Under the pieces are notes generated by a model. The model made no database searches. It was not told where the DNA came from and saw only the letters and a list, made by a program, of their open reading frames with translations. A program made the position numbers and the translations under genes. A stretch of DNA of 50,838 bases, from positions 1 through 50,838 of the forward strand of contig JBHLPW010000040.1 of the NCBI GenBank assembly GCA_048939015.1. Reading direction: 5' to 3'. Origin of the DNA: Promethearchaeota archaeon. Its GTDB lineage: Archaea; Asgardarchaeota; Lokiarchaeia; Sigyniarchaeales; SOKP01. This document shows, in pieces, positions 15,468 through 31,829 of this stretch (position 1 is the stretch's first letter; every line of letters begins with the position of its first letter).

Positions 15468-17189
15468 TTGGCTCAACAAATGAGTAGTGAAAAATTTTGG
15501 TTAAAATCGTATGATAAACACGTTCCTGCTTCTTTAACTTATCCAACAGAAGATATTGGAATGATGTTAATACAAAAAATGAATCAATATGCTGAGAATG
15601 TAGGAATTCATTTTATGGATCGTACTTTTCTCTTTGGAGAAATACTAGAACATTCTCAGAGATTAGCAACTTTCTTACAGAAAAATGGTATGAATAAAGG
15701 TGATGTACTTGCCATATGTCTTCCAAATTCACCCCAATACCTCTTTGCTGTTTATGGGACGTATATAGCTGGTGGAACCGTTACAGGATGTTCACCATTG
15801 TTAAGTCCAGAGGAAATAGTATACCAAATGAAAGATTCAGGTGCTAAATTCTTAGTTACAATGGATATACTTCATGAAAAGGTCTTCTCGAAGATATATG
15901 ATCGCTTAAATAATTTGAAAGTAATAATTCCAACAAATGTTTCGGAGTTTATGGGATTTGGCGGTTTTAAAGTATTCATGGGAAAATTAATAAAAAAAAT
16001 CCCAAAAGGTAAACTTATCCCTTGGCCAGGAAAAACAGTTGTTCCGTTTCTAGAAGCACTAGCTACTGAAATTGATTTAAAAAAGGTAGATATTGATCCA
16101 AAAAAAGATATTGCTCTAATACAATATACTGGAGGAACCACTGGTCTTCCAAAGGGAGTTGAGATCCTTCATACTAATTTAATGTCAAATATTCATCAAT
16201 TTGATGTTTGGCTTGACAGAGAGAAAGGTAAAGAAATACTGCTTTCGGCATTTCCTTTCTTCCACGTAGCGGGTTTCTTAATTGGACTTTTTTTGGCCTA
16301 TTTAGGTGGAACACAAATACTAATAGCAAATCCAAGAGATACTGATCATATAATAAAGGAAATAATTGATAAAAAACCCACAAGCTTTGGTAATGTACCA
16401 ACACTGTTTTTAATGATCCAAAACAATCCCATGTCAAAAAAAATCCCAACAGAAGTATTAGATAATATTACATTATATGTTAGTGGTGCTGCACCTTTTC
16501 CGCCAGAAGCTATAAGAGAGTTTGAAAAACAATTTCACTCAGAGAATAAATTTGTGGAAGTTTATGGGATGACTGAAACAGCTGTAGTGATATGTGCTAA
16601 TCCAATGTATGGGGAAAAAAAGATTGGAACTGTTGGATTACCTTGGCCAGATACAGATATTAAATTAATAGATACAGAAACGGGTACTGAAGTAAAAGAG
16701 TTTGGACAACCAGGAGAAATTTTAATAAAAGGCCCTTCGGTAGCAAAACAATACCATAACAAACCTGAAGCTACAGCAGTCACGTTTGATAAAGATGGAT
16801 ATGTCCACACGGGTGATGTTGGTGTTTTTGATGAAGATGGATATCTCAAGATTGTAGATCGTACAAAAGATATGCTTATAGTAAGTGGTTTCAAAGTTTA
16901 CAGTGTTCACGTTGAAGAAGTAATGACTAAACATCCTGATATTCAAATTATTGCAATAATAGGAGTTCCTAATCCTGATAGACCTGGAGCAGAAATTGTT
17001 AAAGCAGTTATACAATTAAAAGAAGGTGTAGAAGAATCTGACGCTGTTAAAGAAAGTATCAAAAAATATTCTGAAGAAAATCTCTCAAAATATGAAGTTC
17101 CTAAAATATGGGAATTTAAGGAAGAGCTTCCTCTAACTCTAGTTGGAAAGGTCCTGAAAAAGGCATTAAGAGAAGAAGAATCAAAATAG
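15468..17189 (+). CDS. Long-chain-fatty-acid--CoA ligase (FadD-like)
   Basis: QYTGGTTGLPKG, PFFHVAG, YGMTET, HTGD, IVDRTKDML, LTLVGKVLK. TTG start (ATG 15480 alternative). Confidence 0.92.
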   Translation: MAQQMSSEKFWLKSYDKHVPASLTYPTEDIGMMLIQKMNQYAENVGIHFMDRTFLFGEILEHSQRLATFLQKNGMNKGDVLAICLPNSPQYLFAVYGTYIAGGTVTGCSPLLSPEEIVYQMKDSGAKFLVTMDILHEKVFSKIYDRLNNLKVIIPTNVSEFMGFGGFKVFMGKLIKKIPKGKLIPWPGKTVVPFLEALATEIDLKKVDIDPKKDIALIQYTGGTTGLPKGVEILHTNLMSNIHQFDVWLDREKGKEILLSAFPFFHVAGFLIGLFLAYLGGTQILIANPRDTDHIIKEIIDKKPTSFGNVPTLFLMIQNNPMSKKIPTEVLDNITLYVSGAAPFPPEAIREFEKQFHSENKFVEVYGMTETAVVICANPMYGEKKIGTVGLPWPDTDIKLIDTETGTEVKEFGQPGEILIKGPSVAKQYHNKPEATAVTFDKDGYVHTGDVGVFDEDGYLKIVDRTKDMLIVSGFKVYSVHVEEVMTKHPDIQIIAIIGVPNPDRPGAEIVKAVIQLKEGVEESDAVKESIKKYSEENLSKYEVPKIWEFKEELPLTLVGKVLKKALREEESK

Positions 17190-18461: not shown

Positions 18462-19277
18462 ATGCGAATAGAAGATTTTGAAGATATTATTTATGAAAAG
18501 GAAGATAATGGTATATGTACAGCCACTATTTCAAGACCAGAGGCTAGAAATGCAGTAACTTACATAAGTTTCTTAGAGATGTATTATGTTCTAGAAGATA
18601 TGGAAAAAGATAGAAATGCCAGAGTACTTATTATAACAGGAGATCCTAGAGGGAATGCTTTCACATCTGGAGGTTTTTTTAAACCAGAAATGATTGAACA
18701 AATGAGAAAATATCCTGAAATTGATCTAATGGATATTGCTCAAAAAAAGGTTTGTATGAAATTCTGGAACTTTAGTAAACCAGTCATCGTTGCAATTAAT
18801 GGAATGGCTATTGGAGGAGGTATTACAATGCCTTTAGCAGGGGCTGATTTAATATATATGGCAGAAGATGCTTGGCTGGGATTTTTTTTCTCTAAAAGAG
18901 GTATAATCCCAGAATTTGGTTGCTCATTTCTATTACCATTACTAGTGGGTTTTCAAAAAGCAAAAGAAATATGTTATTTTGGAGAAAAAATTACTGCACA
19001 GAAAGCTCTCGATCTTGGACTTATAAATAAAGTTTTACCCTCAAAAGATTTAATCCCTTATGCAAGAGAACAAGCTATAAGATTGATACCTCCAAAGGGT
19101 CCTAGTTTGTCATTAAAATTGATGAAAAAGACAATGCATGCTTATTTTAGAGATATTATAGAAAGAACTTTAGATTTAGAAAATAGAGGTTTAAGAAAAA
19201 CTTTTACATCAAAAGATTTTAATGAATCCATGAATGCTATCAAAGAAAAAAGAGATCCAGTGTTCGTTGGGCGTTAA
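18462..19277 (+). CDS. Enoyl-CoA hydratase/isomerase (crotonase), isomerase-like residue pattern
   Basis: RPEARNA, AFTSGG, KPVIVAINGMAIGGG, RGIIPEFG, EKRDPVF. Lacks the two canonical hydratase Glu residues but has an acidic residue at the PaaG-like position. Confidence 0.88.
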   Translation: MRIEDFEDIIYEKEDNGICTATISRPEARNAVTYISFLEMYYVLEDMEKDRNARVLIITGDPRGNAFTSGGFFKPEMIEQMRKYPEIDLMDIAQKKVCMKFWNFSKPVIVAINGMAIGGGITMPLAGADLIYMAEDAWLGFFFSKRGIIPEFGCSFLLPLLVGFQKAKEICYFGEKITAQKALDLGLINKVLPSKDLIPYAREQAIRLIPPKGPSLSLKLMKKTMHAYFRDIIERTLDLENRGLRKTFTSKDFNESMNAIKEKRDPVFVGR

Positions 19278-19421: not shown

Positions 19422-20975
19422 ATGAATAATAGTATTTATGATGAAAGTAGAGTTTTAGACACTTATCCCATTATTGTTATTGGAGCGGGACTCGGAGGAC
19501 TCGGAGCTGCATGTCAACTTGCTTCAGTAGGAAAAAAAGTACTGTTGTTAGAAAAACATAATGTCCCCGGTGGTTTTGCTTCTTCGTTTGTCAGAGGAAG
19601 ATTTGAATTCGATAGTGCCTTACATGAATTAAGTGATATCGGAACAGAAAACAATAAAGGGAGCCTATATCGATTTTTAGAAAGACTTGGTGCTATTCCT
19701 GACAAAATACAATTCAGACAAATACCAGAGTTTTATAGAAGTATATTTATGGATGGATATGATGTCACCATGCCCATTGGTTTAGAAGAATATACCGAGA
19801 AATTAATGGAATTATTTCCTTCGGAAAAGAAAGCAATTGAAGACTTTTTAGATGTATGTCAGAAAGTATTAGAAGGAATACAATTTATGATAAAAAGAAG
19901 GGGTCAATATTCGCCAGCTGAAATCCTTAAAGAACATCCATGGCTGATAAGAGTTTCGGGAATTACCCTATCAGAATTCTTTAAAAAATTCTTTACTGAT
20001 AAGCGATTGATTTCGGTTATCGCACATTTATGGGGTTATCTAGGAGTACCTCCATCTAGATTAAATGCATATGCTTATATTGCTATGATCATCACATTTT
20101 TAAAATGGGGAGCCGCTTATCCGGTTGGTAGATCGCATGCATTAACCACTGCAATGGTTAAGGCTTTTGAAGAATTAGGTGGTGAGATAAGATATAATGC
20201 CTTAGTAAACAGAATAATTGTTAAAGATGGAAGAGTTATAGGCGTGGAACTTCTTAATGGAGATGTATATAAATGTCAAGCAGCTATTTCAAATGTTAAT
20301 CCAATATGCACAACCATGAAAATGCTCCCTAAAGATGTGGTTCCAGAAAGTTATATAAAAAAGATTTATGCTCCTGAAGTTGGACCGTCAGCATTTTCAG
20401 TTTATTTAGGATTAAATGCCTCATATAAAGATTTAGGAATTCATGCACATGAGATGACTATAAGTGAATCAGATGACATGGATAAAGCTTATGAAACATT
20501 TGCAAAATTAGAACCGCCAAAATATTTAGTAGCAGGTTGTTATAATCATGTATACAATGATATATCTCCTCCAGGAACGGCAGAGTTATGTATTACAACA
20601 TTACAAATGGGCAAATTATGGTATAATGTTCCTCCTGATCAATACCATAAAGTTAAGGACTATCTTGCTGATAAAATGGTGGAAATAATTGAAAAGACAA
20701 TTTGTCCAAATATACGTGATTATATTGAAGTTGCAGAAGCAGCAACACCACTCACATATTATCGGTACTCAAAAAATATGGATGGAGCAATATATGGATA
20801 TACACAAGATCTATTGGATGGACCAAATCTTAGACTAAAAAGCCGAGGCCCAATACCAGGTTTATATCAATGTGGAGCTTGGACCAATATCGGTGGTGGA
20901 TTCTCAGCAAGTATACTCAGTGGTAGAATTGCTGCAGGAATGTTTTTACAAGATAATAAGGAAGGGAGGCATTAA
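19422..20975 (+). CDS. CrtI/CrtISO/RetSat-superfamily FAD-dependent oxidoreductase (paralog 1)
   Basis: VIGAGLGGLGAA..LA, LEKHNVPGG.A.SF.RGRFEFD, YP.G.S.AL, SAFSVYLG, ATPLTYYRY...GAIYG, GLYQCGAW...GGG. Confidence 0.9.
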   Translation: MNNSIYDESRVLDTYPIIVIGAGLGGLGAACQLASVGKKVLLLEKHNVPGGFASSFVRGRFEFDSALHELSDIGTENNKGSLYRFLERLGAIPDKIQFRQIPEFYRSIFMDGYDVTMPIGLEEYTEKLMELFPSEKKAIEDFLDVCQKVLEGIQFMIKRRGQYSPAEILKEHPWLIRVSGITLSEFFKKFFTDKRLISVIAHLWGYLGVPPSRLNAYAYIAMIITFLKWGAAYPVGRSHALTTAMVKAFEELGGEIRYNALVNRIIVKDGRVIGVELLNGDVYKCQAAISNVNPICTTMKMLPKDVVPESYIKKIYAPEVGPSAFSVYLGLNASYKDLGIHAHEMTISESDDMDKAYETFAKLEPPKYLVAGCYNHVYNDISPPGTAELCITTLQMGKLWYNVPPDQYHKVKDYLADKMVEIIEKTICPNIRDYIEVAEAATPLTYYRYSKNMDGAIYGYTQDLLDGPNLRLKSRGPIPGLYQCGAWTNIGGGFSASILSGRIAAGMFLQDNKEGRH

Positions 20976-20977
20976 AA

Positions 20978-22177
20978 ATGGAAAAAGAGATAATGAATGA
21001 TGTTAAAAAATATCAGAAGCTTGAAAAATTGAAAAAAATGCGAGATGATATTCAACCAATTCCTTGGTATTATGATGGATTAGAAGCTCTTTGTGATCGA
21101 ATTCATCCTGAAAGCCAATTACTTCAAGTTACAGATATAGAAGAATTATCTAAGGATACTAAATTATTTCGATTTATTTCAGCAAAAGGGAATAAGCCTT
21201 TAGCACCATTTCGAGCGGGGCAATACATCGGACTTATAGTTGAAATCGACGGAGTTAGAACTTCACGTCCATTTTCTATAGCATCCTCTCCAAATCAATC
21301 CGCATATTATGAATTAGGAATAAAAAGAAAAGAAAATGGATTCGTGAGTAATTATCTTCTTGATAGATTAAAAGTAGGGGATATTGTAGAAGCAACAGGA
21401 CCATTAGGAGAATTGTATTACAACCAAATTTTTCATGGAAGAGACTTAGTTTTTATTGCAGGGGGTTCAGGGATAACTCCATTTATTTCAATGTTGAGAA
21501 ATATCATGGAACAAAACATAAAATTGAACGTTTGGTTATTATTTGGATGTTTGACTGAGGAAGATATTCTTTTTAAAAAAAAATTAGATGATATTCAATC
21601 ACGACGTTCTAATATAAAAATTCAATATATTCTTTCAGAACCAGGATCAGGTTGGAATGGTGCACGTGGTTTCATTTCAAAAGATAAAATCTTAGAGACT
21701 ATAAGGGCAATTAAAGATAAATTCTTTTACATTGTCGGCAATAGAGCAATGTATTCTTTCATAAAACAACAATTAAATGAACTAAAAGTACCTCAATCTC
21801 GAGCTATTTATGAATTATATGGAGTACCTGATGATGTTACTGAAGAAATGGGATGGCCAAAAGATATAACCGCTTCAAAAAAAGTTAAGGTAAAAATAGA
21901 TTTTATTCAACAAGGGAAAAAAATCCAAAAAATTATAGAAGTATTATGTACTGAACCATTGTTAAATAGTCTTGAAAGAGAAAAAAGTTTGGGATTAATA
22001 ATTAACACTGGATGTCGTTCAGGAGCTTGTGCTTTGTGTAGGACTAAACTAAAGGAAGGAAAAGTTTTTATGATCCCAGATGTAAAAATGAGAGAAATTG
22101 ACGAAGAATTTGGTTTTATTCATCCATGTGTCTCATATCCTTTGACAGATATTCATTTAGATTTAACACTAACATAA
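20978..22177 (+). CDS. FAD/NAD(P)H ferredoxin reductase with C-terminal [2Fe-2S] domain (PaaE/KshB/Hcr-type), paralog 1
   Basis: FRAGQY, RPFSIAS, GFVS, AGGSGITPF, CRSGACALC...HPC. Starts 2 nt after the CrtI-like stop, with GGGAGG in the upstream gene's last codons. Confidence 0.9.
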   Translation: MEKEIMNDVKKYQKLEKLKKMRDDIQPIPWYYDGLEALCDRIHPESQLLQVTDIEELSKDTKLFRFISAKGNKPLAPFRAGQYIGLIVEIDGVRTSRPFSIASSPNQSAYYELGIKRKENGFVSNYLLDRLKVGDIVEATGPLGELYYNQIFHGRDLVFIAGGSGITPFISMLRNIMEQNIKLNVWLLFGCLTEEDILFKKKLDDIQSRRSNIKIQYILSEPGSGWNGARGFISKDKILETIRAIKDKFFYIVGNRAMYSFIKQQLNELKVPQSRAIYELYGVPDDVTEEMGWPKDITASKKVKVKIDFIQQGKKIQKIIEVLCTEPLLNSLEREKSLGLIINTGCRSGACALCRTKLKEGKVFMIPDVKMREIDEEFGFIHPCVSYPLTDIHLDLTLT

Positions 22178-22252
22178 ATATTAAAATCGAAAATTCACCT
22201 TATCCTAAAATTAAAAAATCGCAAAAAATAAAACTTTAATAAATAATATAAA

Positions 22253-22663
22253 GTGAAAAAAGTGAAAATATTTTCAGAAGAATGGGTAGAAGCTTTTGGG
22301 AAAGCAATAAATGATAATCCGAATTATAAACCATCAGCTTTAACTTGGGAAGGGGATATGCTTTTTGTTATCGAACCAAGTGGTAATTTAGACTATACAG
22401 TCAAAGTTCTTGTAGGATTGTATCATGGTGAATGTACAGGAACTAAATTAATAAAAGAAGGAGAAGATGTAGAAGCAGAATTTATCATAACAGGTAATTA
22501 TGATAACGTTTTACAGGTAATAAAAAAAGAAATTGATCCAATCCGAGCTATCATGGCAGGTAAGCTAAAACTTGAAGGAAATATGGCTAAAGTAATGCGG
22601 CATACTAAAGCAGCGCAAGAGATAGTAGTTAGTCTTGGAAATATCGAAACTGAATTTTTATAA
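22253..22663 (+). CDS. SCP2 sterol/lipid-binding domain protein
   Basis: FSEEW, WEGD, HGEC, IDPIRAIMAGKLKLEGNMAKVMR. Confidence 0.88.
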   Translation: MKKVKIFSEEWVEAFGKAINDNPNYKPSALTWEGDMLFVIEPSGNLDYTVKVLVGLYHGECTGTKLIKEGEDVEAEFIITGNYDNVLQVIKKEIDPIRAIMAGKLKLEGNMAKVMRHTKAAQEIVVSLGNIETEFL

Positions 22664-22727
22664 ATTTATTTTTTTTGAAATTTTTTTATTAATAAATTAA
22701 ATACATTAATATTGGTGTGAAAAAGAA

Positions 22728-23927
22728 GTGTGGTACTTTTATAGTCCCAATATAATTTATGGCGAGGATAGTTTAGATTTTATTGAAAATATAAGCGGAA
22801 ATAAGTGTTTCATAGTCACAGATGAACAAATTGAAAAATTAGGATATTTAAAAATTCTAACAGAGAAAATTGAAAAATTTGGGAAGTCATTCCAAATATT
22901 TAATAATGTTCTGCCTGATCCTCATGAAGAGATTGTACTAGAAGCAAGAGAAAAATGTATATCTTACGAGCCAGATCTAATTATTGCTTTAGGAGGAGGT
23001 TCAGTAATAGATACAGGTAAAGCTGTTTGGGCTTTATTTGAATTTCCGGATTACATACTTGATGACGTTCATACATTTGATCCTCAATTATATGAAATGG
23101 GTAAAAAAGCTAAATTCATTGCAATACCAACTACATCAGGAACAGGTTCAGAAGCGACAAATGCTTCAATTATTTCTAGATTGGATGATAACATATGGAA
23201 GAAATATATTTTTGCTCATAAAGGATTAACTCCTACTTACGCTATAGTTGATCCAATATTCCCTTCAGGTATGCCTTTAGAATTAACGATAGATACAGCT
23301 CTAGATGCACTATCGCATGCCATAGAAGGAATGATATCAAATTGGAGGAATGAATTTTCTAATGGAATTGGTTTAAAAGCAATAGAGCTTATTTTCAAAT
23401 ATTTACCACTTGTTTATAAAGATGGTAGAAACAAGGAAGCAAGAGATTATTTACATCAAGCAGCAACAATGGCAGGTTTAGCATTTAGTAATTCTCAAGT
23501 TCATATCGGTCATGGAATGGGTCATGGATGGGGAGCAGTATTTCATACTCCTCATGGAAAATCTGTTGGAGTTTTACTTCCATATGTCACACAATTTTGC
23601 CTAAATAACCCAGATAAAGATGATAAGACAATAGAAATTTATGCTAAGATGTCTAAACAGCTTGGTTGGTCTAAATGGGACGATGTAGATAAAAATGCGG
23701 CATTTGTTGTCATTGATAAAATCAGAGAGCTTCAAAAATTGCTTGGATTTCCAACAAAATTAAAAGATTTAGGCGTCTCGAAAGAAGACTTAGAAAACAA
23801 TCTAGAAATGTTGGTGATGTGTTGTTTTCAGGATGCGACTAGTGTTATGACTCCCAGATCTATTACAGATGAATATTACAGAAAACTATACTATTATGCA
23901 TATGAAGGCAAAGATGTAGACTTTTGA
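22728..23927 (+). CDS. Iron-containing alcohol dehydrogenase
   Basis: ALGGGSVIDTGK, AIPTTSGTGSE, DALSHAIE, HGMGH, PHG. GTG start after GGTG. Confidence 0.92.
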   Translation: MWYFYSPNIIYGEDSLDFIENISGNKCFIVTDEQIEKLGYLKILTEKIEKFGKSFQIFNNVLPDPHEEIVLEAREKCISYEPDLIIALGGGSVIDTGKAVWALFEFPDYILDDVHTFDPQLYEMGKKAKFIAIPTTSGTGSEATNASIISRLDDNIWKKYIFAHKGLTPTYAIVDPIFPSGMPLELTIDTALDALSHAIEGMISNWRNEFSNGIGLKAIELIFKYLPLVYKDGRNKEARDYLHQAATMAGLAFSNSQVHIGHGMGHGWGAVFHTPHGKSVGVLLPYVTQFCLNNPDKDDKTIEIYAKMSKQLGWSKWDDVDKNAAFVVIDKIRELQKLLGFPTKLKDLGVSKEDLENNLEMLVMCCFQDATSVMTPRSITDEYYRKLYYYAYEGKDVDF

Positions 23928-24004
23928 GATAAAAATTAAAAATTTTAATTAATTTCATTTTACAAATTTTATTTTTAACAATACAAATTATAAAATTCCC
24001 TATC

Positions 24005-25852
24005 ATGGTATCATTAAAAGGCTTTGTAGGAAAACTATTAATTGTTGATCTTAATAACCAAGAGATTTCTGAAGAAAGTCTTAATGAAAATATAGCAAAA
24101 TCTTTCCTTGGAGGTACTGGATATAGTTGTAGATATCTATATGATTATATTGATAAAGATACGGACCCTTTATCTCCAGATAATATACTAATGTTTATGA
24201 CAGGACCATTTTGTGGTTCGAACGTTCCTACTAATGGAAGATTTTCGATATGTTCTAAATCCCCTTATACTGGAATTTGGGGAGAGGCAATATGTGGTGG
24301 ATTTTTTGGGCCTGAATTAAAAAAAGCAGGTTATGATGGAATAATATTTAAAGGCGCCTCTAAAAATCCTGTCTATTTAAATATAACTAATGGAAAGGCT
24401 GAAATTAAAGATGCATCAACTTTATGGGGTAAAGGAGTTTTTGAAACCTCAAAAATATTGAAAAAAGTATCGGGATCAGATTTAACTAGGATTGCTTGTA
24501 TTGGACAAGCTGGTGAAAATTTAGTAAAATATGCTACAATTGCTTCCGAGGAAAAAGCAGCAGGTAGGACAGGAATGGGTGCAGTTATGGGATCAAAAAA
24601 GTTAAAAGCAATATCTGTTAGAGCATCAAAAAGAATTTATGAAGCTGCGGAAGCAAATAAATTTAAAGAAACTGTTAAAAAAATTACAGAAGAAATCAAT
24701 TCAGCTTTTGCATCTCAGATGTTTGGAATTTTGGGTACTTCGAGTGGTGTGGATAAATATAATTTAGAGGGGGAATTACCCATCAAATATTGGACATTAG
24801 GAACTTGGGATGGTGCTTTTGATATTTCTGGAGCAACAGCTTCAGAAAAAATATTTTCCAGAAGTTATCCTTGTTTTTCATGTCCTATAGGATGTGCTAA
24901 AAAAGCATTAATTAAGGAGGGAGAATATAAAACTGATCAAGAAATTGAAGCTGCTGAATATGAAACGGTAGTGAGTTTTGGTTCATTAATTTTAAATAAT
25001 AATCTTGAATCAATTCAACGAGCTAATTATCTATGTAATGACTTTGGGATTGATACTATAAGTGGAGGAAGTACAATAGCCTTTATTTATTATTTATTTA
25101 ATAATGGAAAGATAAAGTCTACAGATATTGATGGTTTAGAACCTAAATGGGGGGATATAAAGTCAGCTTTAGAGATGATCCAAAAAATTGGATTTCGAGA
25201 AGGAATTGGGGATCTTTTAGCCAAAGGATCTAACACTGTTGGGCAGAAATTTAATATACATCAAGATGAAATAGCCACGGCATATGGTATGGAAATCCCT
25301 TTTCACGATTTAAGACGTTGTTTTGGTATGGCAATTGCGTATGGAATAGCTACAACAAGAGGACCATGTCATATGGCCTGTGATGCTTATTTTGTATTAT
25401 TAGGTCTTCCCATAGAAGAATTTGATGTTGATTTAAGTGTTGATTGGTATTCAGATAATGAAGATATGGCAAGAGTCTGTGCTCAGATTCAGAATTATCG
25501 AGCAATCTATAATTCATTAATATTGTGCAGTTTTGCTAATCCTCCTCTCTCAATGATTATTGAGTTGTTAAATACAGCTACTGGATTAGATCTTAATCTT
25601 GAAGAATTTAAAATTTTAGGTGAGAGAATCTATATGATTAAAAGACTGTTCAATCTAAAAATGGGCATAACACCCGCAGATGATAAACTTCCAAAGATCG
25701 TACTTATTCCGCTTAATGAAGGAGGTTCAGCAGGAAAATCGCCAGATTTTCAAAAATTAAAAGAATCATACTATAAATACAGAACTTTTGATCTTAAAAC
25801 GGGATACCCCACTCAAGGAAAATTAAAAACTCTTGGCTTAGATTTGCTCTAA
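24005..25852 (+). CDS. aor: Tungsten-containing aldehyde:ferredoxin oxidoreductase
   Basis: KSPYTG, GGFFGPELKKAGYD, AGRTGMGAVMGSKKLKA, CFSCPIGC, EYET, GIDTIS, RGPCH. Confidence 0.92.
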   Translation: MVSLKGFVGKLLIVDLNNQEISEESLNENIAKSFLGGTGYSCRYLYDYIDKDTDPLSPDNILMFMTGPFCGSNVPTNGRFSICSKSPYTGIWGEAICGGFFGPELKKAGYDGIIFKGASKNPVYLNITNGKAEIKDASTLWGKGVFETSKILKKVSGSDLTRIACIGQAGENLVKYATIASEEKAAGRTGMGAVMGSKKLKAISVRASKRIYEAAEANKFKETVKKITEEINSAFASQMFGILGTSSGVDKYNLEGELPIKYWTLGTWDGAFDISGATASEKIFSRSYPCFSCPIGCAKKALIKEGEYKTDQEIEAAEYETVVSFGSLILNNNLESIQRANYLCNDFGIDTISGGSTIAFIYYLFNNGKIKSTDIDGLEPKWGDIKSALEMIQKIGFREGIGDLLAKGSNTVGQKFNIHQDEIATAYGMEIPFHDLRRCFGMAIAYGIATTRGPCHMACDAYFVLLGLPIEEFDVDLSVDWYSDNEDMARVCAQIQNYRAIYNSLILCSFANPPLSMIIELLNTATGLDLNLEEFKILGERIYMIKRLFNLKMGITPADDKLPKIVLIPLNEGGSAGKSPDFQKLKESYYKYRTFDLKTGYPTQGKLKTLGLDLL

Positions 25853-25963
25853 AAGACTTTTAAAAATTTTATTTTAATTATTTTTAAGTATCCAGATTTA
25901 GTTTTTTTAAAATTCTTAATAATTCTGCAAAATTTTCATTAAATAAGAAATTAATAAAAAAAA

Positions 25964-27148
25964 TTAAGTTAAATCTAGCGTTAAATCGGTTAAAGGATAA
26001 GAAATACATGGATGTATATAACCAAACTTTTGATCTACTTCTCTAATAATTATTTCCGGCGGAATAAATACTTCTCCTGTGATTAATTTAGTTCTACACA
26101 ACGCACATGCCCCTGAACGACATCCACTCTCAATTTTAATTTCCGTTCCCATTTCTCTTTCAATACTATTTAATAATGGCTCAATACAAGGAGCTTCGAA
26201 AGTTTTCAAATCAATTTTATCTAAATTATTATATCTCACTGAAATTTTCACTTTTTTAGAAGAATCAACACCACTTGGCCATCCAATGACTTTAGTTACA
26301 TCATCAGGACTTCCATAGGCTTCATATGCAATTCTATGTTTAGGAATGTTTATCTCTTCTAATTCTTTAAATATGAATTGGTACATATCTCGATTTCCAA
26401 CAACATAAAAGAATTTATCATTAACATTTCCTACAAAATTCTTAATTGTATCTCTAGTAATAAATCCACATTCTCCCTTCCAATCTGAGCTATCTGCCTC
26501 GGACAGTATACAGTTGAATTTAAAGTTATTTCTCCGTGATTGCAAATCCTCAAGTTCTTGTCTAAAGATAATATCTCCTTCAGTGAGACAACCAAATAAT
26601 AACCAGATATTTACAGGTAATAATCTCTCAGAAATGTCTCTTAACATGGAAATGAATGGAGTTATCCCACATCCACCAGCAATGAAAACTAAATTATCTC
26701 CATGAAAGAGCCTATTATTATAGAAAACACCTAAAGGTTCAGTACTTTCTAAAATATCACCAATTTTTAAATTATTATAGAGATATACACTAACAAATCC
26801 ATTTTCTTTCTTTCTGATCCCAAGCTCATAATAAGCATGTTGATTAGGAGATGAAACTATCGAATAGGGGCGTGATGTCCTTACCCCATTTATTTCAATT
26901 GTAAGTCCAATGTATTGTCCTGCCCGAAATGGAGGCAATGCCTTCGTAGATCTTGCTGGAATTAATCGATATAATTTCGTATCATGGGAAAGATCTTTTA
27001 TATCCGATACTTTTAACCAAATTTTACCAGGATGAAGACGATCATGTAGATTTTCCATACTATCAAAATATTCAGGTAACTCCTTTACTTCCTCTCTCCA
27101 TTTCTGCATTTTCTGAGCATAAGTAAATTTCTTTAGATCTTTAAACAC
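25964..27148 (-). CDS. FAD/NAD(P)H ferredoxin reductase with C-terminal [2Fe-2S] domain, paralog 2
   Basis: FRAGQYIGL, RTSRPYS, AGGCGITPF, CRSGACALC...HPCISYP. GTG start 6 nt after the CrtI-like stop, with GGAGG upstream. Confidence 0.9.
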   Translation of the reverse strand: MFKDLKKFTYAQKMQKWREEVKELPEYFDSMENLHDRLHPGKIWLKVSDIKDLSHDTKLYRLIPARSTKALPPFRAGQYIGLTIEINGVRTSRPYSIVSSPNQHAYYELGIRKKENGFVSVYLYNNLKIGDILESTEPLGVFYNNRLFHGDNLVFIAGGCGITPFISMLRDISERLLPVNIWLLFGCLTEGDIIFRQELEDLQSRRNNFKFNCILSEADSSDWKGECGFITRDTIKNFVGNVNDKFFYVVGNRDMYQFIFKELEEINIPKHRIAYEAYGSPDDVTKVIGWPSGVDSSKKVKISVRYNNLDKIDLKTFEAPCIEPLLNSIEREMGTEIKIESGCRSGACALCRTKLITGEVFIPPEIIIREVDQKFGYIHPCISYPLTDLTLDLT

Positions 27149-27154
27149 TTTTCT

Positions 27155-28690
27155 TCACACTCCTCCTTTTTCCTTTTCTTCTAAGTACATACTAGCTGCC
27201 ATTCTTCCACTTGTAATGCTTGTTGAATAACCTCCACCTAGATTTACCCATGCTCCTGCGAAAAATAAACCTGAAATTGGACCTTTACTATTCAGTCTCA
27301 ACATAGGGCTATCTAAAAGATCTTGTTTATAACCATAAATTGCTCCATTCAAACTCTTTGAATAGTGATAATAAGTAAGTGGAGTTGCTGCTTCTGCTAT
27401 TTCTATATGTTCTCTTAGATTAGGATATAGTAATTCTTCAACCATATCTATCATATTGTTTGCCATTTCATCCTTCTTATGATGATATTGATCAGGAGAG
27501 ACAGTAGACCAAGGTTTACCATCCTGAAGTACTGTTAATACTACTTGACTCGTTCCTGGTGGTGAAATACCTTCATACATAACATTGTAACAAGATGCTA
27601 AAAGGTATTTTGGTGGTTCTATTTTAAGCGAACTCAAGTATTGTTCTTCTAAGTTATATGTTGAGTTTAAAAAAACTTCAAAATGAGTTATACCTAAGTC
27701 TTTAGGCTTTGCATTCAATCCTAAATACGCTGTAAAGACCGAGGTTCCGATATCTGGTGCATATACTCGTTTTTTATAACTATCTGGGATACTTTCTCGG
27801 GGAAGCATTTTCATAGTAGTGCATATTGGATTGACATTTGAGACGATTGCTTTACAAGAGTATCTTTCTCCATTAAGTAGTTCAACACCACTTACTTTAC
27901 CTTCTTCAACAAGAATTCGATTTACTAAGGCATTATATTTTATAGTACCTCCCAATTTTTCGAAAGCTTCTATAATTACACTAGATAATGCATGAGATCT
28001 GCCAACAGGGAATACAGCATCATCCAAAAGGGCTATCAAAACTAATATGTAGTACATTGCATTTACCCTTGATGGGGGTAAACCTTCATAACCCCATAAT
28101 TGACTCGCAATAGCCCTTAATCTTTGGTCTTTAAAACATCTATCATAGATATCATTAAGTGTTAATCCTCCAACGCGAGCTAGATAGGGATGTTTAAAAA
28201 GTATTCCTATTGGGGATGCTTTTCCCTCTTTTTCTGCTACGTAATTGAATCCCGCTCTAACCTTATATACAATTTTTTTCCATTTTTTAATTCCTTTTTT
28301 CTCTTTCGGAAAAAGTTCTATTAGTTTATCGAAATATGCTTCTCTCTCATTTGGAAAAGTAATATCAGTCCCATCATAAAACACACTTCTACAGAGATCC
28401 ATTGGTTTTTTAAATTCGATCTTATTAAACACTCCTAAATCTTTAAAAAAATCGTATAGACTTAATGGATGCTCCTCAGTTCCAACTTCAGCTAGTACAT
28501 GTAAGGCACCTTCAAATTCAAATCTCCCTCGAACAAATGATGTAGCAAATCCCCCTGGAACATTGTGCTTTTCTAATAATAAAACTTTTTCTCCAGAAAG
28601 AGCAAGCTGACACGCAGCTCCAAGTCCACCTAATCCAGCTCCGATAACTACTACAGGTAATTCATTCTTATTTAAATTCTCTTTTTCCAT
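27155..28690 (-). CDS. CrtI/CrtISO/RetSat-superfamily FAD-dependent oxidoreductase (paralog 2)
   Basis: Same motifs as 19422-20975, with long identical blocks (VIGAGLGGLGAACQLA, SNVNPICTTMKMLP, AEAATPLTYY). Confidence 0.9.
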   Translation of the reverse strand: MEKENLNKNELPVVVIGAGLGGLGAACQLALSGEKVLLLEKHNVPGGFATSFVRGRFEFEGALHVLAEVGTEEHPLSLYDFFKDLGVFNKIEFKKPMDLCRSVFYDGTDITFPNEREAYFDKLIELFPKEKKGIKKWKKIVYKVRAGFNYVAEKEGKASPIGILFKHPYLARVGGLTLNDIYDRCFKDQRLRAIASQLWGYEGLPPSRVNAMYYILVLIALLDDAVFPVGRSHALSSVIIEAFEKLGGTIKYNALVNRILVEEGKVSGVELLNGERYSCKAIVSNVNPICTTMKMLPRESIPDSYKKRVYAPDIGTSVFTAYLGLNAKPKDLGITHFEVFLNSTYNLEEQYLSSLKIEPPKYLLASCYNVMYEGISPPGTSQVVLTVLQDGKPWSTVSPDQYHHKKDEMANNMIDMVEELLYPNLREHIEIAEAATPLTYYHYSKSLNGAIYGYKQDLLDSPMLRLNSKGPISGLFFAGAWVNLGGGYSTSITSGRMAASMYLEEKEKGGV

Positions 28691-28757: not shown

Positions 28758-29582
28758 TTACTTCCATCGCCATTTAGGCTTAGTTTTTGACAATCGAGCT
28801 AACGCAGCATTTACTGCATCTTTAGTTTGAAGTAGTTGAGAGCTTACTAACGTTTCAAGTTCTAAACCTAAAGCAGTGTCCTTACCATAGCAATCATCTA
28901 TTAATTTTTTAGCAAGCCCAATTGCTAGAGGACCACTACTCATCAACTCGTCAGTATACATTTTAATAATTGAATCTAAATCTTCATGGTCTTTTGCAAC
29001 CCGATTTACAACTCCAAGTCTATAAGCTTCATTTCCATCGAACATTCGGCCAGTTAAAATGATATCCTTCGTGTTTTGGATTCCAACAAGCCTCGTTAAC
29101 CTGATTGTACCCCCAACATCTGGATTCATGCCTATCTTTGATTCTAACATATGAAATTCTGCAGATTCTGTACAAAATCGAAAATCACATGCTAGTGCTA
29201 ACTCGAATGCCATTCCATAACAATAACCATTTATTTTCGCTATAACAGGTTTTTCCATTTTTTCAATTTTAGTAAATATTGGATGAATCCAGGTATTTGC
29301 AAAATATCTAAAATTCCTTGGAATTCGTAAATCCGGAATTACACCTTCAGGATCCTTTTCTTGACCAGTAAGAAAGTTTAAATCTATACCTGAGCTAAAA
29401 AATTCATCCCCCCCAGTAATAATTACTACTCTAGCGTTAGTTCTTTCTACTTTATCAATAGCCTTTTGAAGTCCAACCATTAGATCATAATTCATAGCAT
29501 TTTTTTTCTCAATACGATTCATTTTTATTGTGACAATCGTCTTATCTTCGTTTTCTTCTATTAATACGGCATTTTCATTCAT
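28758..29582 (-). CDS. Enoyl-CoA hydratase/isomerase (crotonase)
   Basis: NR.EKKNAM, FSSGIDL, KPVIAKING.CYG.AFELALACDFR, LESKIGMNPDVGG; both Glu residues plus an Asp are present. Confidence 0.9.
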   Translation of the reverse strand: MNENAVLIEENEDKTIVTIKMNRIEKKNAMNYDLMVGLQKAIDKVERTNARVVIITGGDEFFSSGIDLNFLTGQEKDPEGVIPDLRIPRNFRYFANTWIHPIFTKIEKMEKPVIAKINGYCYGMAFELALACDFRFCTESAEFHMLESKIGMNPDVGGTIRLTRLVGIQNTKDIILTGRMFDGNEAYRLGVVNRVAKDHEDLDSIIKMYTDELMSSGPLAIGLAKKLIDDCYGKDTALGLELETLVSSQLLQTKDAVNAALARLSKTKPKWRWK

Positions 29583-29816: not shown

Positions 29817-31829
29817 TTGAAGTTCTTTAAATTATTCACACCTTTTAAAATTAGGAATATGACGGTTTCAAACCGAATTGTTATGCCTGCTTTGAATCTT
29901 AATCTCGCGGATAATGGTTTTATCACTCAAAGACTGATTGATTTTTATGCTGAAAGAGCCAAAGGAGGAGCTGGAATGTTAATAGTCGGTGGATGTTACG
30001 TAGATCTTTATGGAAAAGGGGTTCCCATGATGATCTCAATTGAAAGTGATGAATACATCCCAAAATTAGCAGAGTTCACTGAAGCTGTACATCAAGCTAG
30101 AGAGGATGTAAAAGTAGTCTGTCAATTATATCATAGTGGGGCTTATACTTTCCCACAAATAATTGGTAAAGCGCCCATAGCTCCTTCTGCGGTATATAGT
30201 AATTTCAGTAAGACAACCCCAAGAGAAATGACTCTTGAAGATATTAAAACTGAACAACAAGCTTTTGCTGACGCAGCCATCAGAGCAAAAAAGGCAGGTT
30301 TTGACGCTGTAGAAATATGTGCTAATGCTGGTTATTTGTTTAGTCAATTTTCTTCTCCAAAAACAAATATACGGACTGATGAATATGGTGGGAGTCTTGA
30401 AAATCGTTTAAGATTTGCTATTGAAACTTTTGAATTGATGAGATCAAGTGTGGGAGATTTTCCCATTGGATACCGCATATCAGGTGATGATTTTGTTCCA
30501 GAAAGTAATACATATAAGGAAAAAGCTATGATAGCTGAACATTTAAGTAAATACTTAGATTATTTAAATGTTACTGGTGGTTGGCATGAAACTAAAACAC
30601 CACAAACAACTATGGATGTTCCAGAAGGATGTTACACTTACTTAGCAGAAAATATTAGGAATAAAGTATCTATCCCGGTATTTGCTTCCAATAGAATAAA
30701 TAACACTGAGTTAGCTGAACACGTATTAATGGCTAGAAAAGCAGATGCTATCTGTATGGGTAGAGCATTAGTAGCAGATCCATATTTACCATCTAAAGCT
30801 AAAAAAGGCGATCTACGGGATATAATGTCTTGTATAGGGTGTAACCAAGGTTGTTTTGATGCTATATTTAAAATGGTTCCGATTTCTTGCTTGAGAAACG
30901 CTAGAGCCGGAAATGAAGCAAAAACAGAATTAAAACCTCTTAAGGGCAAAAAGAAAGTTATGATAGTTGGTGCAGGACCTGGAGGATTAGAAGCTGCGAG
31001 GGTTGCTGCAATAAGAGGTCATGAAGTTCATATCTTTGAAAAAGATGATAAAATAGGAGGATTATTAAATATAATATGGATACCTCCTGGAAGAAATGAG
31101 TTTAAGAGAATGATTGACAATTATCAATATTGGATTCAAAAGCATGGAATACAAGTTCATCTTGACCAAGAGGTTTCTATTAATACTGTTAAACAATATA
31201 ATCCTGATGTAGTTTTTGTGGCAACGGGTTCAAATCCAATAAAACCACCAATTTCCGGTATAGAAAGAGACAATGTTTATTGGGCTAACGATGTATTTAA
31301 TGGAGATGCTCCAATTGGTAAAAATAATGTGATTATTGGTGGTGGTGCAACAGGAATCGAATTAGCTATATATATAGCTAAATATGGGTCTTTAAGTCTT
31401 GAAGCGTTTGATTTTTTAACAAATTATGAAGCTTTAGAACCTGAGATTGCTCTAGATATGCTACATAGTGGAAGAAATAAAGTAACAGTACTGGAACAAT
31501 TACCAAAATTGGGTTCTGCATTAGGAAAAACCACTAAATGGGTACTGCTTGACAAGTGTGATAATTTAGGTGTCAAATTTCATACTGGAGTTAGAGTCAA
31601 AGAAATTGGAGAAAATACTGTGAGTTTTATAGATACAAAAGATAATGAACAGATTATCAATAATGTAGACTTTATATTTTATGCTACAGGTGTAGAACCA
31701 AATAAAAGTCTATTCAAAGAAATAAAACAACTTGATAATATTGAAGTTCAGACAATAGGAGATGCTAGAAAACCAGAAACCGTTCTAGAAGCAGTTCATA
31801 GAGCATATAAGTTAGCAAATAATATATAA
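29817..31829 (+). CDS. FadH-like 2,4-dienoyl-CoA reductase / OYE-family FMN, 4Fe-4S, FAD enoate reductase
   Basis: NRIVMP, ERAKGGAG, RTDEYGGSLENR, GWHE, CIGCNQGC...C, GAGPGGLEAA, GGGATG. TTG start. Confidence 0.88.
   Translation: MKFFKLFTPFKIRNMTVSNRIVMPALNLNLADNGFITQRLIDFYAERAKGGAGMLIVGGCYVDLYGKGVPMMISIESDEYIPKLAEFTEAVHQAREDVKVVCQLYHSGAYTFPQIIGKAPIAPSAVYSNFSKTTPREMTLEDIKTEQQAFADAAIRAKKAGFDAVEICANAGYLFSQFSSPKTNIRTDEYGGSLENRLRFAIETFELMRSSVGDFPIGYRISGDDFVPESNTYKEKAMIAEHLSKYLDYLNVTGGWHETKTPQTTMDVPEGCYTYLAENIRNKVSIPVFASNRINNTELAEHVLMARKADAICMGRALVADPYLPSKAKKGDLRDIMSCIGCNQGCFDAIFKMVPISCLRNARAGNEAKTELKPLKGKKKVMIVGAGPGGLEAARVAAIRGHEVHIFEKDDKIGGLLNIIWIPPGRNEFKRMIDNYQYWIQKHGIQVHLDQEVSINTVKQYNPDVVFVATGSNPIKPPISGIERDNVYWANDVFNGDAPIGKNNVIIGGGATGIELAIYIAKYGSLSLEAFDFLTNYEALEPEIALDMLHSGRNKVTVLEQLPKLGSALGKTTKWVLLDKCDNLGVKFHTGVRVKEIGENTVSFIDTKDNEQIINNVDFIFYATGVEPNKSLFKEIKQLDNIEVQTIGDARKPETVLEAVHRAYKLANNI

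What the first reader, a model, noticed from the sequence alone, without database searches (positions are those of the whole stretch)
19422..28690. Twice-repeated coupled pair: CrtI/RetSat-family flavoenzyme + FNR-[2Fe-2S] reductase (candidate undescribed two-component C=C reductase/desaturase)
Seen: two paralogous CrtI-superfamily genes (19422-20975 +, 27155-28690 -), each immediately followed (2 and 6 nt gaps, GGAGG inside the upstream gene) by a paralogous FAD/NAD-binding + C-terminal [2Fe-2S] reductase. Both reductases also have a charged N-terminal extension ending DR(I/L)HP, a possible docking segment. Established: reductases of this architecture (PaaE, KshB, Hcr) feed electrons to oxygenases or Hcp, and the characterised CrtI/CrtISO/RetSat enzymes I know have no dedicated reductase subunit. 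No oxygenase, hcp or phytoene synthase lies in the window, and the host looks anaerobic (W-AOR, MtrH). Inference: the reductase is the partner of the flavoenzyme, forming an O2-independent system that saturates or desaturates isoprenoid, sterol or fatty-chain double bonds. Retention of two diverged copies suggests different substrates.
Basis: partly seen in the sequence, partly recalled or inferred. Interest (0 to 1): 0.88.

Follow-up and report, generated by a model that had tools for sequence, protein, structure and literature searches.

The report
CrtI-like flavoenzyme with dedicated iron-sulfur reductase
An Asgard archaeon carries three copies of a gene pair, a carotenoid-desaturase-like flavoenzyme plus its own NAD(P)H/iron-sulfur electron donor; the pair is conserved or fused from archaea to gut bacteria, no experiment on it was found, and it most likely hydrogenates double bonds in lipid-like molecules.

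Summary
Two paralogous pairs lie at the stated coordinates: a CrtI-superfamily flavoenzyme (A) followed 2 or 6 nt later by an FNR-type FAD/NAD + [2Fe-2S] reductase (B). A third pair sits on another contig of the same genome. The host is an Asgard archaeon, not a clostridium.

The partnership is strongly supported:
- A lies directly upstream of B in 27 of 28 Asgard loci and in about 45 bacterial loci from many phyla.
- All B-linked A proteins form one clade.
- A and B distances co-vary (Mantel r 0.87).
- 57 natural single-chain fusions were found, and both domain orders occur.
- A sister lineage is fused to a non-homologous NAD(P)H reductase plus a BFD-type [2Fe-2S] domain.
- The predicted complex scores 0.87, against 0.00 for the best control.

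The genome has no Rieske, di-iron, P450, Hcp or phytoene-synthase gene.

The direction of the reaction is inferred. NAD(P)H-driven reduction of a C=C in an acyl or isoprenoid chain is most likely. Desaturation with NAD(P)+ as acceptor is thermodynamically implausible.

I found no paper on this module. The scan has met it before on other DNA, with the same reading.

The parts
19422..20975 (+). A1: CrtI-superfamily FAD enzyme (517 aa), terminal catalytic component
   Evidence: Pfam Amino_oxidase/NAD_binding_8. NCBIfam carot_isom 161.6 bits and crtI_fam 161.1 bits, both below cut-off. AF2 model pLDDT 90.5; best fold match 4rep, TM 0.79/0.83.
20978..22177 (+). B1: FNR-type FAD/NAD(P)H + C-terminal plant-type [2Fe-2S] reductase (399 aa) with a ~45-aa N-terminal docking segment
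   Evidence: Pfam FAD_binding_6, NAD_binding_1, Fer2. Invariant C346/C351/C354/C384 and H43. Predicted complex with A1: ipSAE 0.87, best control 0.00.
27155..28690 (-). A2: paralogue of A1 (511 aa, 56% identity)
25964..27148 (-). B2: paralogue of B1 (394 aa, 57% identity, GTG start 6 nt after the A2 stop)
18462..19277 (+). Enoyl-CoA hydratase/isomerase family gene upstream of A1; a recurrent neighbour of A-B in Asgard, Dehalococcoidia, Syntrophomonas, Robiginitomaculum and delta/Syntrophales loci
   Evidence: Pfam ECH_1; neighbour clustering
28758..29582 (-). Second enoyl-CoA hydratase family gene upstream of A2 (only 28% identical to the first)
22253..22663 (+). SCP2-domain lipid-carrier protein (136 aa) directly after B1; A-B-SCP2 recurs in related Asgard genomes
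   Evidence: Pfam SCP2; tblastn hits in 8 Asgard loci
22728..23927 (+). Iron-containing alcohol dehydrogenase, same operon-like run
   Evidence: Pfam Fe-ADH + ADH_Fe_C
24005..25852 (+). Tungsten-type aldehyde:ferredoxin oxidoreductase
   Evidence: Pfam AFOR_N + AFOR_C
15468..17189 (+). Long-chain-fatty-acid-CoA-ligase-like AMP-binding enzyme; a recurrent neighbour of A-B
29817..31829 (+). OYE + Pyr_redox_2 Fe-S flavoenzyme (FadH/BaiCD-like ene-reductase) flanking the cassette

Best explanation
A and B form a two-component redox enzyme, made as a single chain in many bacteria.

Proposed electron path: B takes a hydride from NAD(P)H onto its FAD. It passes single electrons through its C-terminal [2Fe-2S] cluster to the FAD of the CrtI/RetSat-like protein A. 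A then uses the reduced flavin on a lipophilic substrate.

Most likely net reaction: O2-independent saturation of a C=C double bond, or a closely related two-electron reduction such as allylic dehydroxylation. The substrate would be a fatty or isoprenoid chain, handled as alcohol, acid or CoA thioester.

In this Asgard archaeon the system sits in a lipid-catabolic island. The island holds an acyl-CoA ligase, acyl-CoA dehydrogenases, enoyl-CoA hydratases, SCPx-type thiolases, an SCP2 carrier, an alcohol dehydrogenase, an aldehyde:ferredoxin oxidoreductase and a FadH-like ene-reductase. There the reaction would remove double bonds that block beta-oxidation and would also serve as an electron sink.

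Shown here: the A-B partnership, the cofactor-binding motifs, and the absence of any classical partner for B in this genome.
Inferred: the direction of electron flow, the class of substrate and the physiological role.
For: 1. Synteny. A lies directly upstream of B, co-oriented, in 27 of 28 full-length Asgard loci. The same holds in nearly all bacterial A homologues of 30% identity or more: Chloroflexota, Bacillota, Bacteroidota, Spirochaetota, Actinomycetota, Pseudomonadota, Thermodesulfobacteriota and Bdellovibrionota. No homologue below about 29% identity has a B.
2. Genome co-occurrence. In one sample of 151 Asgard genomes, 31 carry the A subfamily and 29 carry a full-length B. All 29 with B also have A.
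3. Phylogeny. All 46 B-linked A proteins and two A/B fusions fall in one clade of 49 (SH-aLRT 99).
4. Co-variation. Mantel r is 0.865, with 0 of 2000 permutations as high. The nearest neighbour agrees in 19 of 27 pairs. The C97 pair is closest to a Christensenellaceae pair for both genes (56% and 51%), so the pair moves as a unit.
5. Fusions. An 881-aa A-B protein (Dehalococcoidia) and a 916-aa B-A protein (Syntrophaceae) were verified by Pfam. Of 59 long homologues of B, 57 carry Amino_oxidase + FNR + Fer2.
6. Convergent fusion. A neighbouring RetSat-like lineage is fused to a non-homologous reductase: Pyr_redox_2 + BFD-type [2Fe-2S] + CrtI-like, 974 aa. Thirty-one clusters share this architecture.
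7. Predicted complex A1+B1. Score 0.87, best of 3 controls 0.00. That mark was reached by 58 of 80 solved complexes and 2 of 110 mismatched pairs; these counts hold only roughly because my own alignments were used. The runs agree in at least 95% of contacts and the partner's pLDDT is at least 87. B's N-terminal segment and its cluster loop (343-355) touch A. A's contacts include the family-signature residues 47-48 and 55-62 next to the FAD motif.
8. Cofactor motifs. Four invariant Cys, RxYS and GGxGxxP in B; GxGxxG plus a family signature in A.
9. No classical partner for B. No Rieske, FA_desaturase, PaaA or P450 was found. The one strong Prismane hit is CooS; a second, weaker one was not classified. 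No phytoene/squalene synthase was found.
10. Direction. FNR-[2Fe-2S] proteins characteristically carry electrons from NAD(P)H to a terminal component. Oxidation of C-C bonds (about 0 mV) cannot reduce NAD(P)+ (-320 mV). Both statements rest on established knowledge, not on a test here.
11. Context. Acyl-CoA ligase and ECH recur next to A-B in distant phyla, and a FabK-like NMO and a FadH-like ene-reductase recur in some loci.
Against: - No experiment exists on any member that I could find. Substrate and net reaction are unknown.
- Relatives in the superfamily use reduced FAD for redox-neutral chemistry (CRTISO isomerisation, Has hydration). B could therefore merely keep A's flavin reduced.
- The published analogue CtmAB runs oxidatively (limonene to perillyl alcohol).
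- The gene order A-B-SCP2-ADH-AOR would also fit hydroxylation followed by oxidation to the acid.
- In the Asgard family of this window, B has VGN in place of the conserved CGP motif of the NAD(P)H site. The donor may therefore differ there.
- In Lokiarchaeum ossiferum a Rieske/VanA_C gene lies next to the pair. In one complete Asgard genome A and B are 130 kb apart.
- I had no coordinates of the predicted complex, so the cluster-to-flavin distance was not measured.
Confidence: 0.58

Rival explanations
1. Redox-neutral enzyme with built-in reductive activation. A is an FAD(red)-dependent isomerase or hydratase, doing cis-trans or positional isomerisation or water addition to a double bond, as in CRTISO or hydroxyarchaeol synthase. 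B only keeps the flavin reduced.
For: - A's best family scores are to the carotenoid isomerase model.
- A CrtI-family hydratase, Has, is known in Methanosarcina.
- ECH-family isomerases/hydratases are recurrent neighbours.
- From my knowledge: CRTISO needs reduced FAD without net redox change.
Against: - A 1:1, translationally coupled and often fused reductase is a heavy investment for occasional re-reduction. The pairing is retained in one clade across two domains of life, and fusions arose in both orders.
- A second, non-homologous reductase fusion exists in the sister lineage.
- Both observations fit stoichiometric electron supply better, but they do not exclude this reading.
Confidence: 0.22
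2. Ctm-like oxidative enzyme. A hydroxylates an allylic methyl or methylene with water, or desaturates. The alcohol is then oxidised by the Fe-ADH and AOR and activated by the ligase. B carries the electrons away.
For: - Published precedent: CtmAB (COG1233) needs the [2Fe-2S] ferredoxin CtmE, and the cluster also encodes the reductase CtmF. It is followed by alcohol and aldehyde dehydrogenases, a CoA ligase and beta-oxidation.
- The related Delta24-desaturase is another oxidative member.
- The gene order A-B-SCP2-ADH-AOR in the window matches such a pathway.
Against: - The covalent-flavin motif G-F-[LR]-x-[NS]-[TL]-H-A of CtmAB/Delta24-SD is absent from the own genome and from all loci fetched up to that point.
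- A is a single subunit here, not a heterodimer.
- Electrons from such oxidations lie about 300 mV above NAD(P)+, and no high-potential acceptor is evident in a fermentative archaeon (established potentials, my knowledge).
- Many hosts are gut fermenters.
Confidence: 0.08
3. B serves another, unseen terminal enzyme (oxygenase, Hcp or similar). Its adjacency to A is operon convenience.
For: - This architecture classically feeds Rieske or di-iron oxygenases or Hcp (NCBIfam relatives PaaE, BenC, GbcB, Hcr).
- A Rieske/VanA_C gene lies beside the pair in Lokiarchaeum ossiferum.
Against: - The own genome has no Rieske, FA_desaturase, PaaA or P450 gene. No Hcp was identified: the strong Prismane hit is CooS and the weaker one was not classified.
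- 57 fused A/B proteins were found.
- One clade, co-variation and a strong predicted interface all point to A as the partner.
Confidence: 0.03

Closest known systems
Limonene dehydrogenase system CtmAB + CtmE ([2Fe-2S] ferredoxin) + CtmF (NADH:ferredoxin oxidoreductase), Castellaniella defragrans (PMC4109377; related Delta24-desaturase, PMC11061730)
   Same: - A COG1233/CrtI-superfamily flavoenzyme genetically tied to a [2Fe-2S] carrier and an NAD(P)H reductase.
- O2-independent chemistry next to a C=C in an isoprenoid.
- Followed in the pathway by alcohol and aldehyde oxidation, CoA activation and beta-oxidation-like genes.
   Different: - Ctm uses a heterodimer of two paralogues with covalently bound flavin. 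That motif was not found here.
- In Ctm the ferredoxin and reductase are separate proteins, and they are described as P450-type ferredoxin/ferredoxin-reductase relatives, so probably of other families than B (not tested here). Here one FNR-Fer2 protein does both jobs.
- Ctm runs oxidatively in a denitrifier.
RetSat (all-trans-retinol 13,14-reductase) and CRTISO (prolycopene isomerase) branch of the CrtI superfamily
   Same: - Same fold and FAD motif.
- A's best family-level scores are to the carotenoid isomerase model.
- Relatives of the neighbouring lineage are auto-annotated as RetSat by JGI.
- RetSat performs the kind of C=C saturation proposed here.
   Different: - A scores far below the curated cut-offs (161.6 bits against 586.9).
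- From my knowledge, no dedicated reductase is known for RetSat or CRTISO.
- Substrates here are probably not carotenoids or retinoids. No phytoene synthase is in the genome and the context is acyl-CoA metabolism.
CrtI / CrtD carotenoid desaturases (PDB 4dgk, 4rep)
   Same: Closest solved structures by sequence (E 3e-25) and by fold (4rep TM 0.79/0.83).
   Different: - Only 18-20% identity.
- Those enzymes oxidise and pass electrons to quinones or O2.
- No iron-sulfur partner.
FNR-[2Fe-2S] reductases of multicomponent oxygenases and Hcp (PaaE, BenC, GbcB, Hcr, phthalate dioxygenase reductase)
   Same: B has the same three domains and cofactor motifs, and presumably the same electron path: NAD(P)H to flavin to [2Fe-2S] to terminal component.
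   Different: - All equivalog scores are below cut-off.
- The terminal component is a flavoenzyme, not a Rieske, di-iron or hybrid-cluster protein.
- B has an extra N-terminal docking segment.
- Asgard copies replace the CGP motif by VGN.

Membership tests
CrtI family (NCBIfam TIGR02734 crtI_fam, subfamily model) | Score at or above the curated cut-off of 238.1 bits | tested here: not met
   A1 161.1 bits, A2 155.0 bits. Bacterial members 85-121 bits.
CrtI superfamily (fold level, COG1233-like) | N-terminal GxGxxG FAD fold plus the CrtI-type three-domain architecture | tested here: met
   Pfam Amino_oxidase over the full length. phmmer to 4dgk E 3e-25. Foldseek 4rep TM 0.79/0.83.
CRTISO (TIGR02730 carot_isom, equivalog) | Score at or above 586.9 bits | tested here: not met
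   A1 161.6 bits, A2 130.9 bits.
RetSat | Orthology to vertebrate all-trans-retinol 13,14-reductase; saturase activity | not testable with these tools
   The libraries hold no RetSat model. Only JGI auto-names on relatives of the sister lineage point this way.
CtmAB / Delta24-SD class of allylic C-H oxidising flavoenzymes | Covalent flavin-binding motif G-F-[LR]-x-[NS]-[TL]-H-A near the N-terminus (PMC11061730) | tested here: not met
   Neither the strict nor a relaxed pattern matched in the six-frame translation of the own genome or of the loci fetched up to that point. A has RFEFExALHE at the equivalent place.
CtmAB / Delta24-SD class | Heterodimer of two diverged paralogous subunits | tested here: inconclusive
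   In the window each A has its own B, and A1 and A2 sit on opposite strands. Another Asgard family has tandem A-A-A-B arrays.
FNR-type [2Fe-2S] oxidoreductase (phthalate dioxygenase reductase-like architecture) | FAD_binding_6 + NAD_binding_1 + plant-type Fer2 with four Cys ligands | tested here: met
   Pfam. Invariant C346, C351, C354, C384, plus RxYS and GGxGxxP.
Hcr (NADH oxidoreductase of the hybrid-cluster protein) | Equivalog score (cut-off 383 bits) and a cognate hcp gene | tested here: not met
   114.5-118.8 bits. No Hcp identified: the strong Prismane hit is CooS (717 bits to TIGR01702); a second, weaker hit on C99 was not classified.
PaaE / oxygenase reductase components | Equivalog score and a cognate oxygenase (PaaA, Rieske, di-iron) | tested here: not met
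   PaaE 128 bits against 420.8. No PaaA_PaaC, Rieske, FA_desaturase or P450 in the genome, which is 94.9% complete.

The most novel reading that the evidence does not exclude
The A-B module is the long-sought, widely distributed, O2-independent hydrogenase of non-activated or allylic C=C bonds in lipids and isoprenoids. Examples would be phytol to dihydrophytol, and the hydrogenation of unsaturated fatty acids and polyprenyl chains. The same enzyme family would then underlie rumen and gut biohydrogenation and give Asgard archaea an electron sink and a route into isoprenoid or unsaturated-lipid catabolism. It would also identify the kind of physiological electron donor that RetSat/CRTISO-type flavoenzymes use.
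Probability: 0.35. Interest if true: 0.78.

Novelty: new variant of a known kind. Interest (0 to 1): 0.62.

Why it matters
Enzymes of the CrtI/RetSat/CRTISO superfamily need electrons put into or taken out of their flavin. To my knowledge the physiological partner is unknown for most of them.

This is a clade in which the partner is written into the genome. It appears as a coupled gene, as fusions in both orders, and convergently as a second type of reductase fusion.

The clade spans Asgard archaea, syntrophs, Dehalococcoidia, actinomycetes, marine hydrocarbon degraders and many gut and rumen anaerobes. The genes behind reductive transformations of dietary and sedimentary lipids in such organisms are still poorly defined.

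A biochemical assignment would annotate a large family of 'phytoene desaturase family' and 'FAD-dependent oxidoreductase' genes. It would also add a concrete step to models of Asgard lipid metabolism.

The natural fusions are ready-made targets for expression and structure determination.

Tried and rejected
- Clostridial host: rejected. The best homologues (90% identity) and the relatives found by the genome search are Asgard archaea.
- Duplication of an ECH-A-B triple: rejected. The two hydratases are only 28% identical.
- Hcp partner: the C8 Prismane hit is CooS.
- Carotenoid biosynthesis: no SQS_PSY gene.
- CtmAB-type covalent-flavin motif: not found.
- SpiE, a gut cholestenone reductase that turned up in a literature search, is an SDR and unrelated.
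- Butyrivibrio CLA reductase (Fukuda 2007) could not be checked. The paper is not held and its family is unknown to me.
- Literature searches for the module itself found nothing. Terms tried: Asgard + phytoene desaturase; CrtI + saturase + ferredoxin; phytoene dehydrogenase + ferredoxin reductase + 2Fe-2S; biohydrogenation; COG1233.
- The limonene dehydrogenase enzymology paper (PMC6005450) is not held.
- L088 was flagged as 'fused' only by ORF length, in a 66% GC locus. It shows no B or Pyr_redox module, so I treat it as an over-extended ORF.
- Neighbour analysis in gut bacteria gave no common theme. It turned up GntR and HTH regulators, sugar-related genes and unknown proteins.
- The cluster-to-flavin distance in the predicted complex could not be measured because coordinates are not returned.

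Full report
**What is in the window.** The 50.8-kb window has about 31% G+C. At 18.4-29.6 kb it carries a mirror-like cassette:
- plus strand: ECH (18462-19277), A1 (19422-20975), B1 (20978-22177), SCP2 (22253-22663), Fe-ADH (22728-23927), tungsten-type AOR (24005-25852);
- minus strand: B2 (25964-27148), A2 (27155-28690), ECH (28758-29582).

A1 and A2 are full-length Amino_oxidase/CrtI-type FAD proteins. B1 and B2 have FAD_binding_6 + NAD_binding_1 + Fer2. A1/A2 are 56% identical and B1/B2 57%.

The flanks form a lipid-catabolic island:
- two acyl-CoA dehydrogenases;
- two long-chain-type acyl-CoA ligases;
- three SCPx-type thiolases with DUF35/ChsH2-type partners;
- a FadH/BaiCD-like OYE-Fe-S flavoenzyme;
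- a Mer-like luciferase-family protein;
- a BKACE enzyme.

**Host.** The closest homologues of A1, at 80-91% identity, come from Promethearchaeota, Hodarchaeota and Lokiarchaeota MAGs. The genome (4.86 Mb, 94.9% complete) sits among Asgard genomes in the genome search. It encodes an anaerobic CO dehydrogenase.

**Is B the partner of A?** Eight lines of evidence agree.
1. The genome has three A-subfamily genes and exactly three full-length B genes, each A followed by a B. The third pair (C97: 10560-12125 and 12112-13341) lies beside pst/phoU genes with no ECH. The pair is therefore the only constant.
2. In 151 sampled Asgard genomes the A subfamily (E <= 1e-60) occurs in 31. A full-length B occurs in 29, and all 29 have A. 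A lies directly upstream of B in 27 of 28 full-length loci.
3. A scan of species-representative genomes returned 80 loci. Nearly every bacterial A homologue of 30% identity or more has B immediately downstream, across at least eight phyla. The hosts include Syntrophomonas, Dehalococcoidia, Faecalibacterium, Phocaeicola, Treponema, Nocardia, Streptomyces, Alcanivoracaceae and Robiginitomaculum. None of the more distant CrtI-like proteins has a B.
4. On a maximum-likelihood tree of 87 CrtI-like proteins, all 46 B-linked proteins and two A/B fusions form one clade of 49 (SH-aLRT 99). Only one member lacks B in its locus.
5. A and B distances co-vary (Mantel r 0.865; 0 of 2000 permutations as high). 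The agreement also runs against the species tree. The C97 pair is closest to a Christensenellaceae pair for both genes, and the pair of another Asgard family is closest to a Bacteriovoracaceae pair for both genes.
6. Natural fusions exist in both orders: 881 aa A-B in a Dehalococcoidia MAG and 916 aa B-A in a Syntrophaceae MAG. Of 59 long homologues of B, 57 carry Amino_oxidase + FNR + Fer2 domains.
7. Just outside the clade, a Spirochaetes protein of 974 aa joins a related CrtI-like domain to a non-homologous module: Pyr_redox_2 + Rubredoxin_C + BFD-type [2Fe-2S]. Thirty-one clusters share this architecture. The next relatives of its flavoenzyme domain are auto-annotated as all-trans-retinol 13,14-reductase. 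Two unrelated NAD(P)H-reductase/[2Fe-2S] modules have thus been recruited to this part of the superfamily.
8. The predicted A1+B1 complex supports binding.
   - Score 0.87, best of 3 controls 0.00.
   - The mark was reached by 58 of 80 solved complexes and 2 of 110 mismatched pairs. These counts hold only roughly because my own alignments were used.
   - The runs agree in at least 95% of contacts, and the partner's pLDDT is at least 87.
   - It also includes B's cluster loop (343-355, around Cys346/351/354), B's C-terminal residues, A's N-terminal residues, and A's family-signature residues 47-48 and 55-62 beside the FAD motif.
   - Termini of both proteins lying in the interface is compatible with fusions in either order.
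   - I know of no solved complex of this kind, so a pass from memory is unlikely. It remains a model.

**No classical partner for B.** The own genome gave no match to Rieske, FA_desaturase, PaaA_PaaC, P450 or SQS_PSY. Its strong Prismane-family hit is CooS, not Hcp; a second, weaker hit was not classified.

**What the proteins are.**
- A folds confidently (pLDDT 90.5).
- A's nearest solved structures are the carotenoid desaturases 4rep (TM 0.79/0.83) and 4dgk, then an uncharacterised Methanosarcina oxidoreductase and plant PDS.
- A fails the curated thresholds of crtI_fam (161 bits against 238) and carot_isom (162 against 587), as do bacterial members. It is a distinct clade.
- A's family signature is HN-PGG-A[ST]SF-RGRFEFE-[AS]LH.
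- B has the four cluster cysteines, RxYS and GGxGxxP, but reaches no equivalog threshold (PaaE, Hcr, GbcB, BenC).

**Direction and function (inferred).** FNR-[2Fe-2S] proteins normally carry electrons from NAD(P)H to a terminal enzyme. Oxidising C-C or allylic C-H bonds yields electrons near 0 mV, which cannot reduce NAD(P)+ at -320 mV (established potentials, my knowledge). Many carriers are fermentative gut or rumen anaerobes, syntrophs and Asgard archaea, for which C=C reduction is a useful sink.

In environmental lineages as far apart as Asgard, Dehalococcoidia, Syntrophomonas, Robiginitomaculum and deltaproteobacteria, the pair recurs with a long-chain-type acyl-CoA ligase and an ECH. Some loci add a FabK-like NMO or a FadH-like enzyme. 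Asgard loci add an SCP2 carrier. Actinomycete loci have a SnoaL/NTF2-like small protein instead.

I therefore favour NAD(P)H-driven saturation of a double bond in a fatty or isoprenoid chain, at about 0.58. A RetSat-like action on an allylic alcohol, followed by ADH, AOR and ligase, would fit the gene order and would be redox-balanced. I take two alternatives seriously:
- a redox-neutral FAD(red)-dependent isomerase or hydratase, about 0.22;
- a Ctm-like oxidative hydroxylase, about 0.08.

**Comparison with the literature.** In Castellaniella defragrans the COG1233 enzyme CtmAB is encoded with the [2Fe-2S] ferredoxin CtmE, and transposon mutants in ctmE lose growth on limonene. The NADH:ferredoxin oxidoreductase CtmF is encoded alongside. 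The related Delta24-desaturase and CtmAB carry covalently bound flavin at a motif that is absent here.

The module studied here differs from Ctm in three ways: its clade, its single A subunit, and an all-in-one FNR-Fer2 reductase. Seven full-text searches found no paper on it, and NCBIfam has no model for it.

The scan itself has met the module before in gut, rumen and other genomes, and follow-up agents reached the same reading. Those are AI notes, not independent evidence. I re-derived synteny, fusions and the Ctm comparison here.

**Specific to this window.**
- The host is archaeal.
- There are three pairs, one of them apparently exchanged with bacteria.
- The two local pairs are convergent and embedded in a lipid-catabolic island. 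A convergent A-B/B-A arrangement is also seen in a related genome, G113.
- B of this Asgard family has a conserved CGP-to-VGN change in the NAD(P)H-site motif. It occurs in 22 sequences, with VGP in two neighbouring lineages and CGP in 44 others, including all bacteria but three (CGS, CGT, AGP). This change is unexplained and might signal an altered donor.

**Verdict.** The chemistry is undetermined but most likely reductive. It is a new variant of a known kind: a CrtI-superfamily flavoenzyme with an iron-sulfur electron chain. It is widespread and experimentally untouched. Interest 0.62.

Noticed in passing
window 21734-21742 (B1 residues 253-255) and the equivalent place in B2: The FNR-family CGP motif of the NAD(P)H site is VGN in B1, B2 and 20 further orthologous sequences from this Asgard family. 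It is VGP in a sister family and in Lokiarchaeum ossiferum. It is CGP in 44 others (the third pair of this genome and most bacteria; three bacterial copies read CGS, CGT or AGP). The change is conserved, so it is not decay; its meaning for the electron donor is unknown.
   Followed up: partly
L086:973-3897 (Spirochaetes MAG): A 974-aa fusion of Pyr_redox_2 + Rubredoxin_C + BFD-like [2Fe-2S] + a CrtI/RetSat-like domain. This is a second, non-homologous reductase/iron-sulfur module joined to a related flavoenzyme. Thirty-one protein clusters of 962-976 aa share the architecture.
   Followed up: partly
L131:2725-7734 (Lokiarchaeum ossiferum contig): The A-B pair of this cultured Asgard archaeon lies divergently next to a Rieske/VanA_C oxygenase-like gene and a tocopherol-cyclase-family gene. 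This is an odd, plastid-flavoured set for an anaerobic archaeon, and the Rieske protein is a possible second client for B there.
   Followed up: no
G028:C149:1914-7748; G047:C62:19497-23719; G070:C83:3451-7666 (another Asgard family): Tandem arrays of two or three A paralogues followed by a single B, with 4-6 A copies per genome. One reductase may serve several flavoenzymes, or A may form hetero-oligomers as CtmAB does.
   Followed up: no
G000:C97:10560-13341 (L018): The third A-B pair of this genome is closer to a Christensenellaceae pair (56% and 51% identity) than to the two pairs in the window (36-38%). This suggests transfer of the whole pair between bacteria and Asgard archaea.
   Followed up: partly
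L051:2246-12041 (Dehalococcoidia MAG): A run of acyl-CoA ligase, FabK-like NMO, ECH and the fused A-B protein is followed by a glycyl-radical enzyme (PFL-like, 798 aa) and its radical-SAM activase. This is a possible anaerobic hydrocarbon- or lipid-activating cluster.
   Followed up: no
L082 (Phocaeicola massiliensis) vs L079 (Oscillospiraceae MAG): The A proteins of a Bacteroidota and a Bacillota gut genome are nearly identical (branch lengths about 0.07). This is either recent horizontal transfer in the gut or a mis-binned contig.
   Followed up: no
window 17450-18382: An MtrH/MtgA-like corrinoid methyltransferase gene sits between the acyl-CoA ligase and the first ECH, inside an otherwise lipid-catabolic run. 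It is missing from the corresponding place in three related loci (L048-L050).
   Followed up: no
window 33559-35742: A Mer-like (F420-type) luciferase-family oxidoreductase and a beta-keto-acid cleavage enzyme (BKACE) lie beside the cassette. With the DUF35/SCPx-thiolase sets at 10425-13842 and 36980-39007, they suggest degradation of branched or otherwise unusual acyl chains.
   Followed up: no
L115:5546-5989, L070:5567-6004 (Streptomyces, Nocardia): In these two actinomycete loci a small SnoaL/NTF2-like protein gene precedes A, overlapping or abutting it. It occupies the place that the SCP2 carrier gene holds after B in Asgard loci.
   Followed up: no
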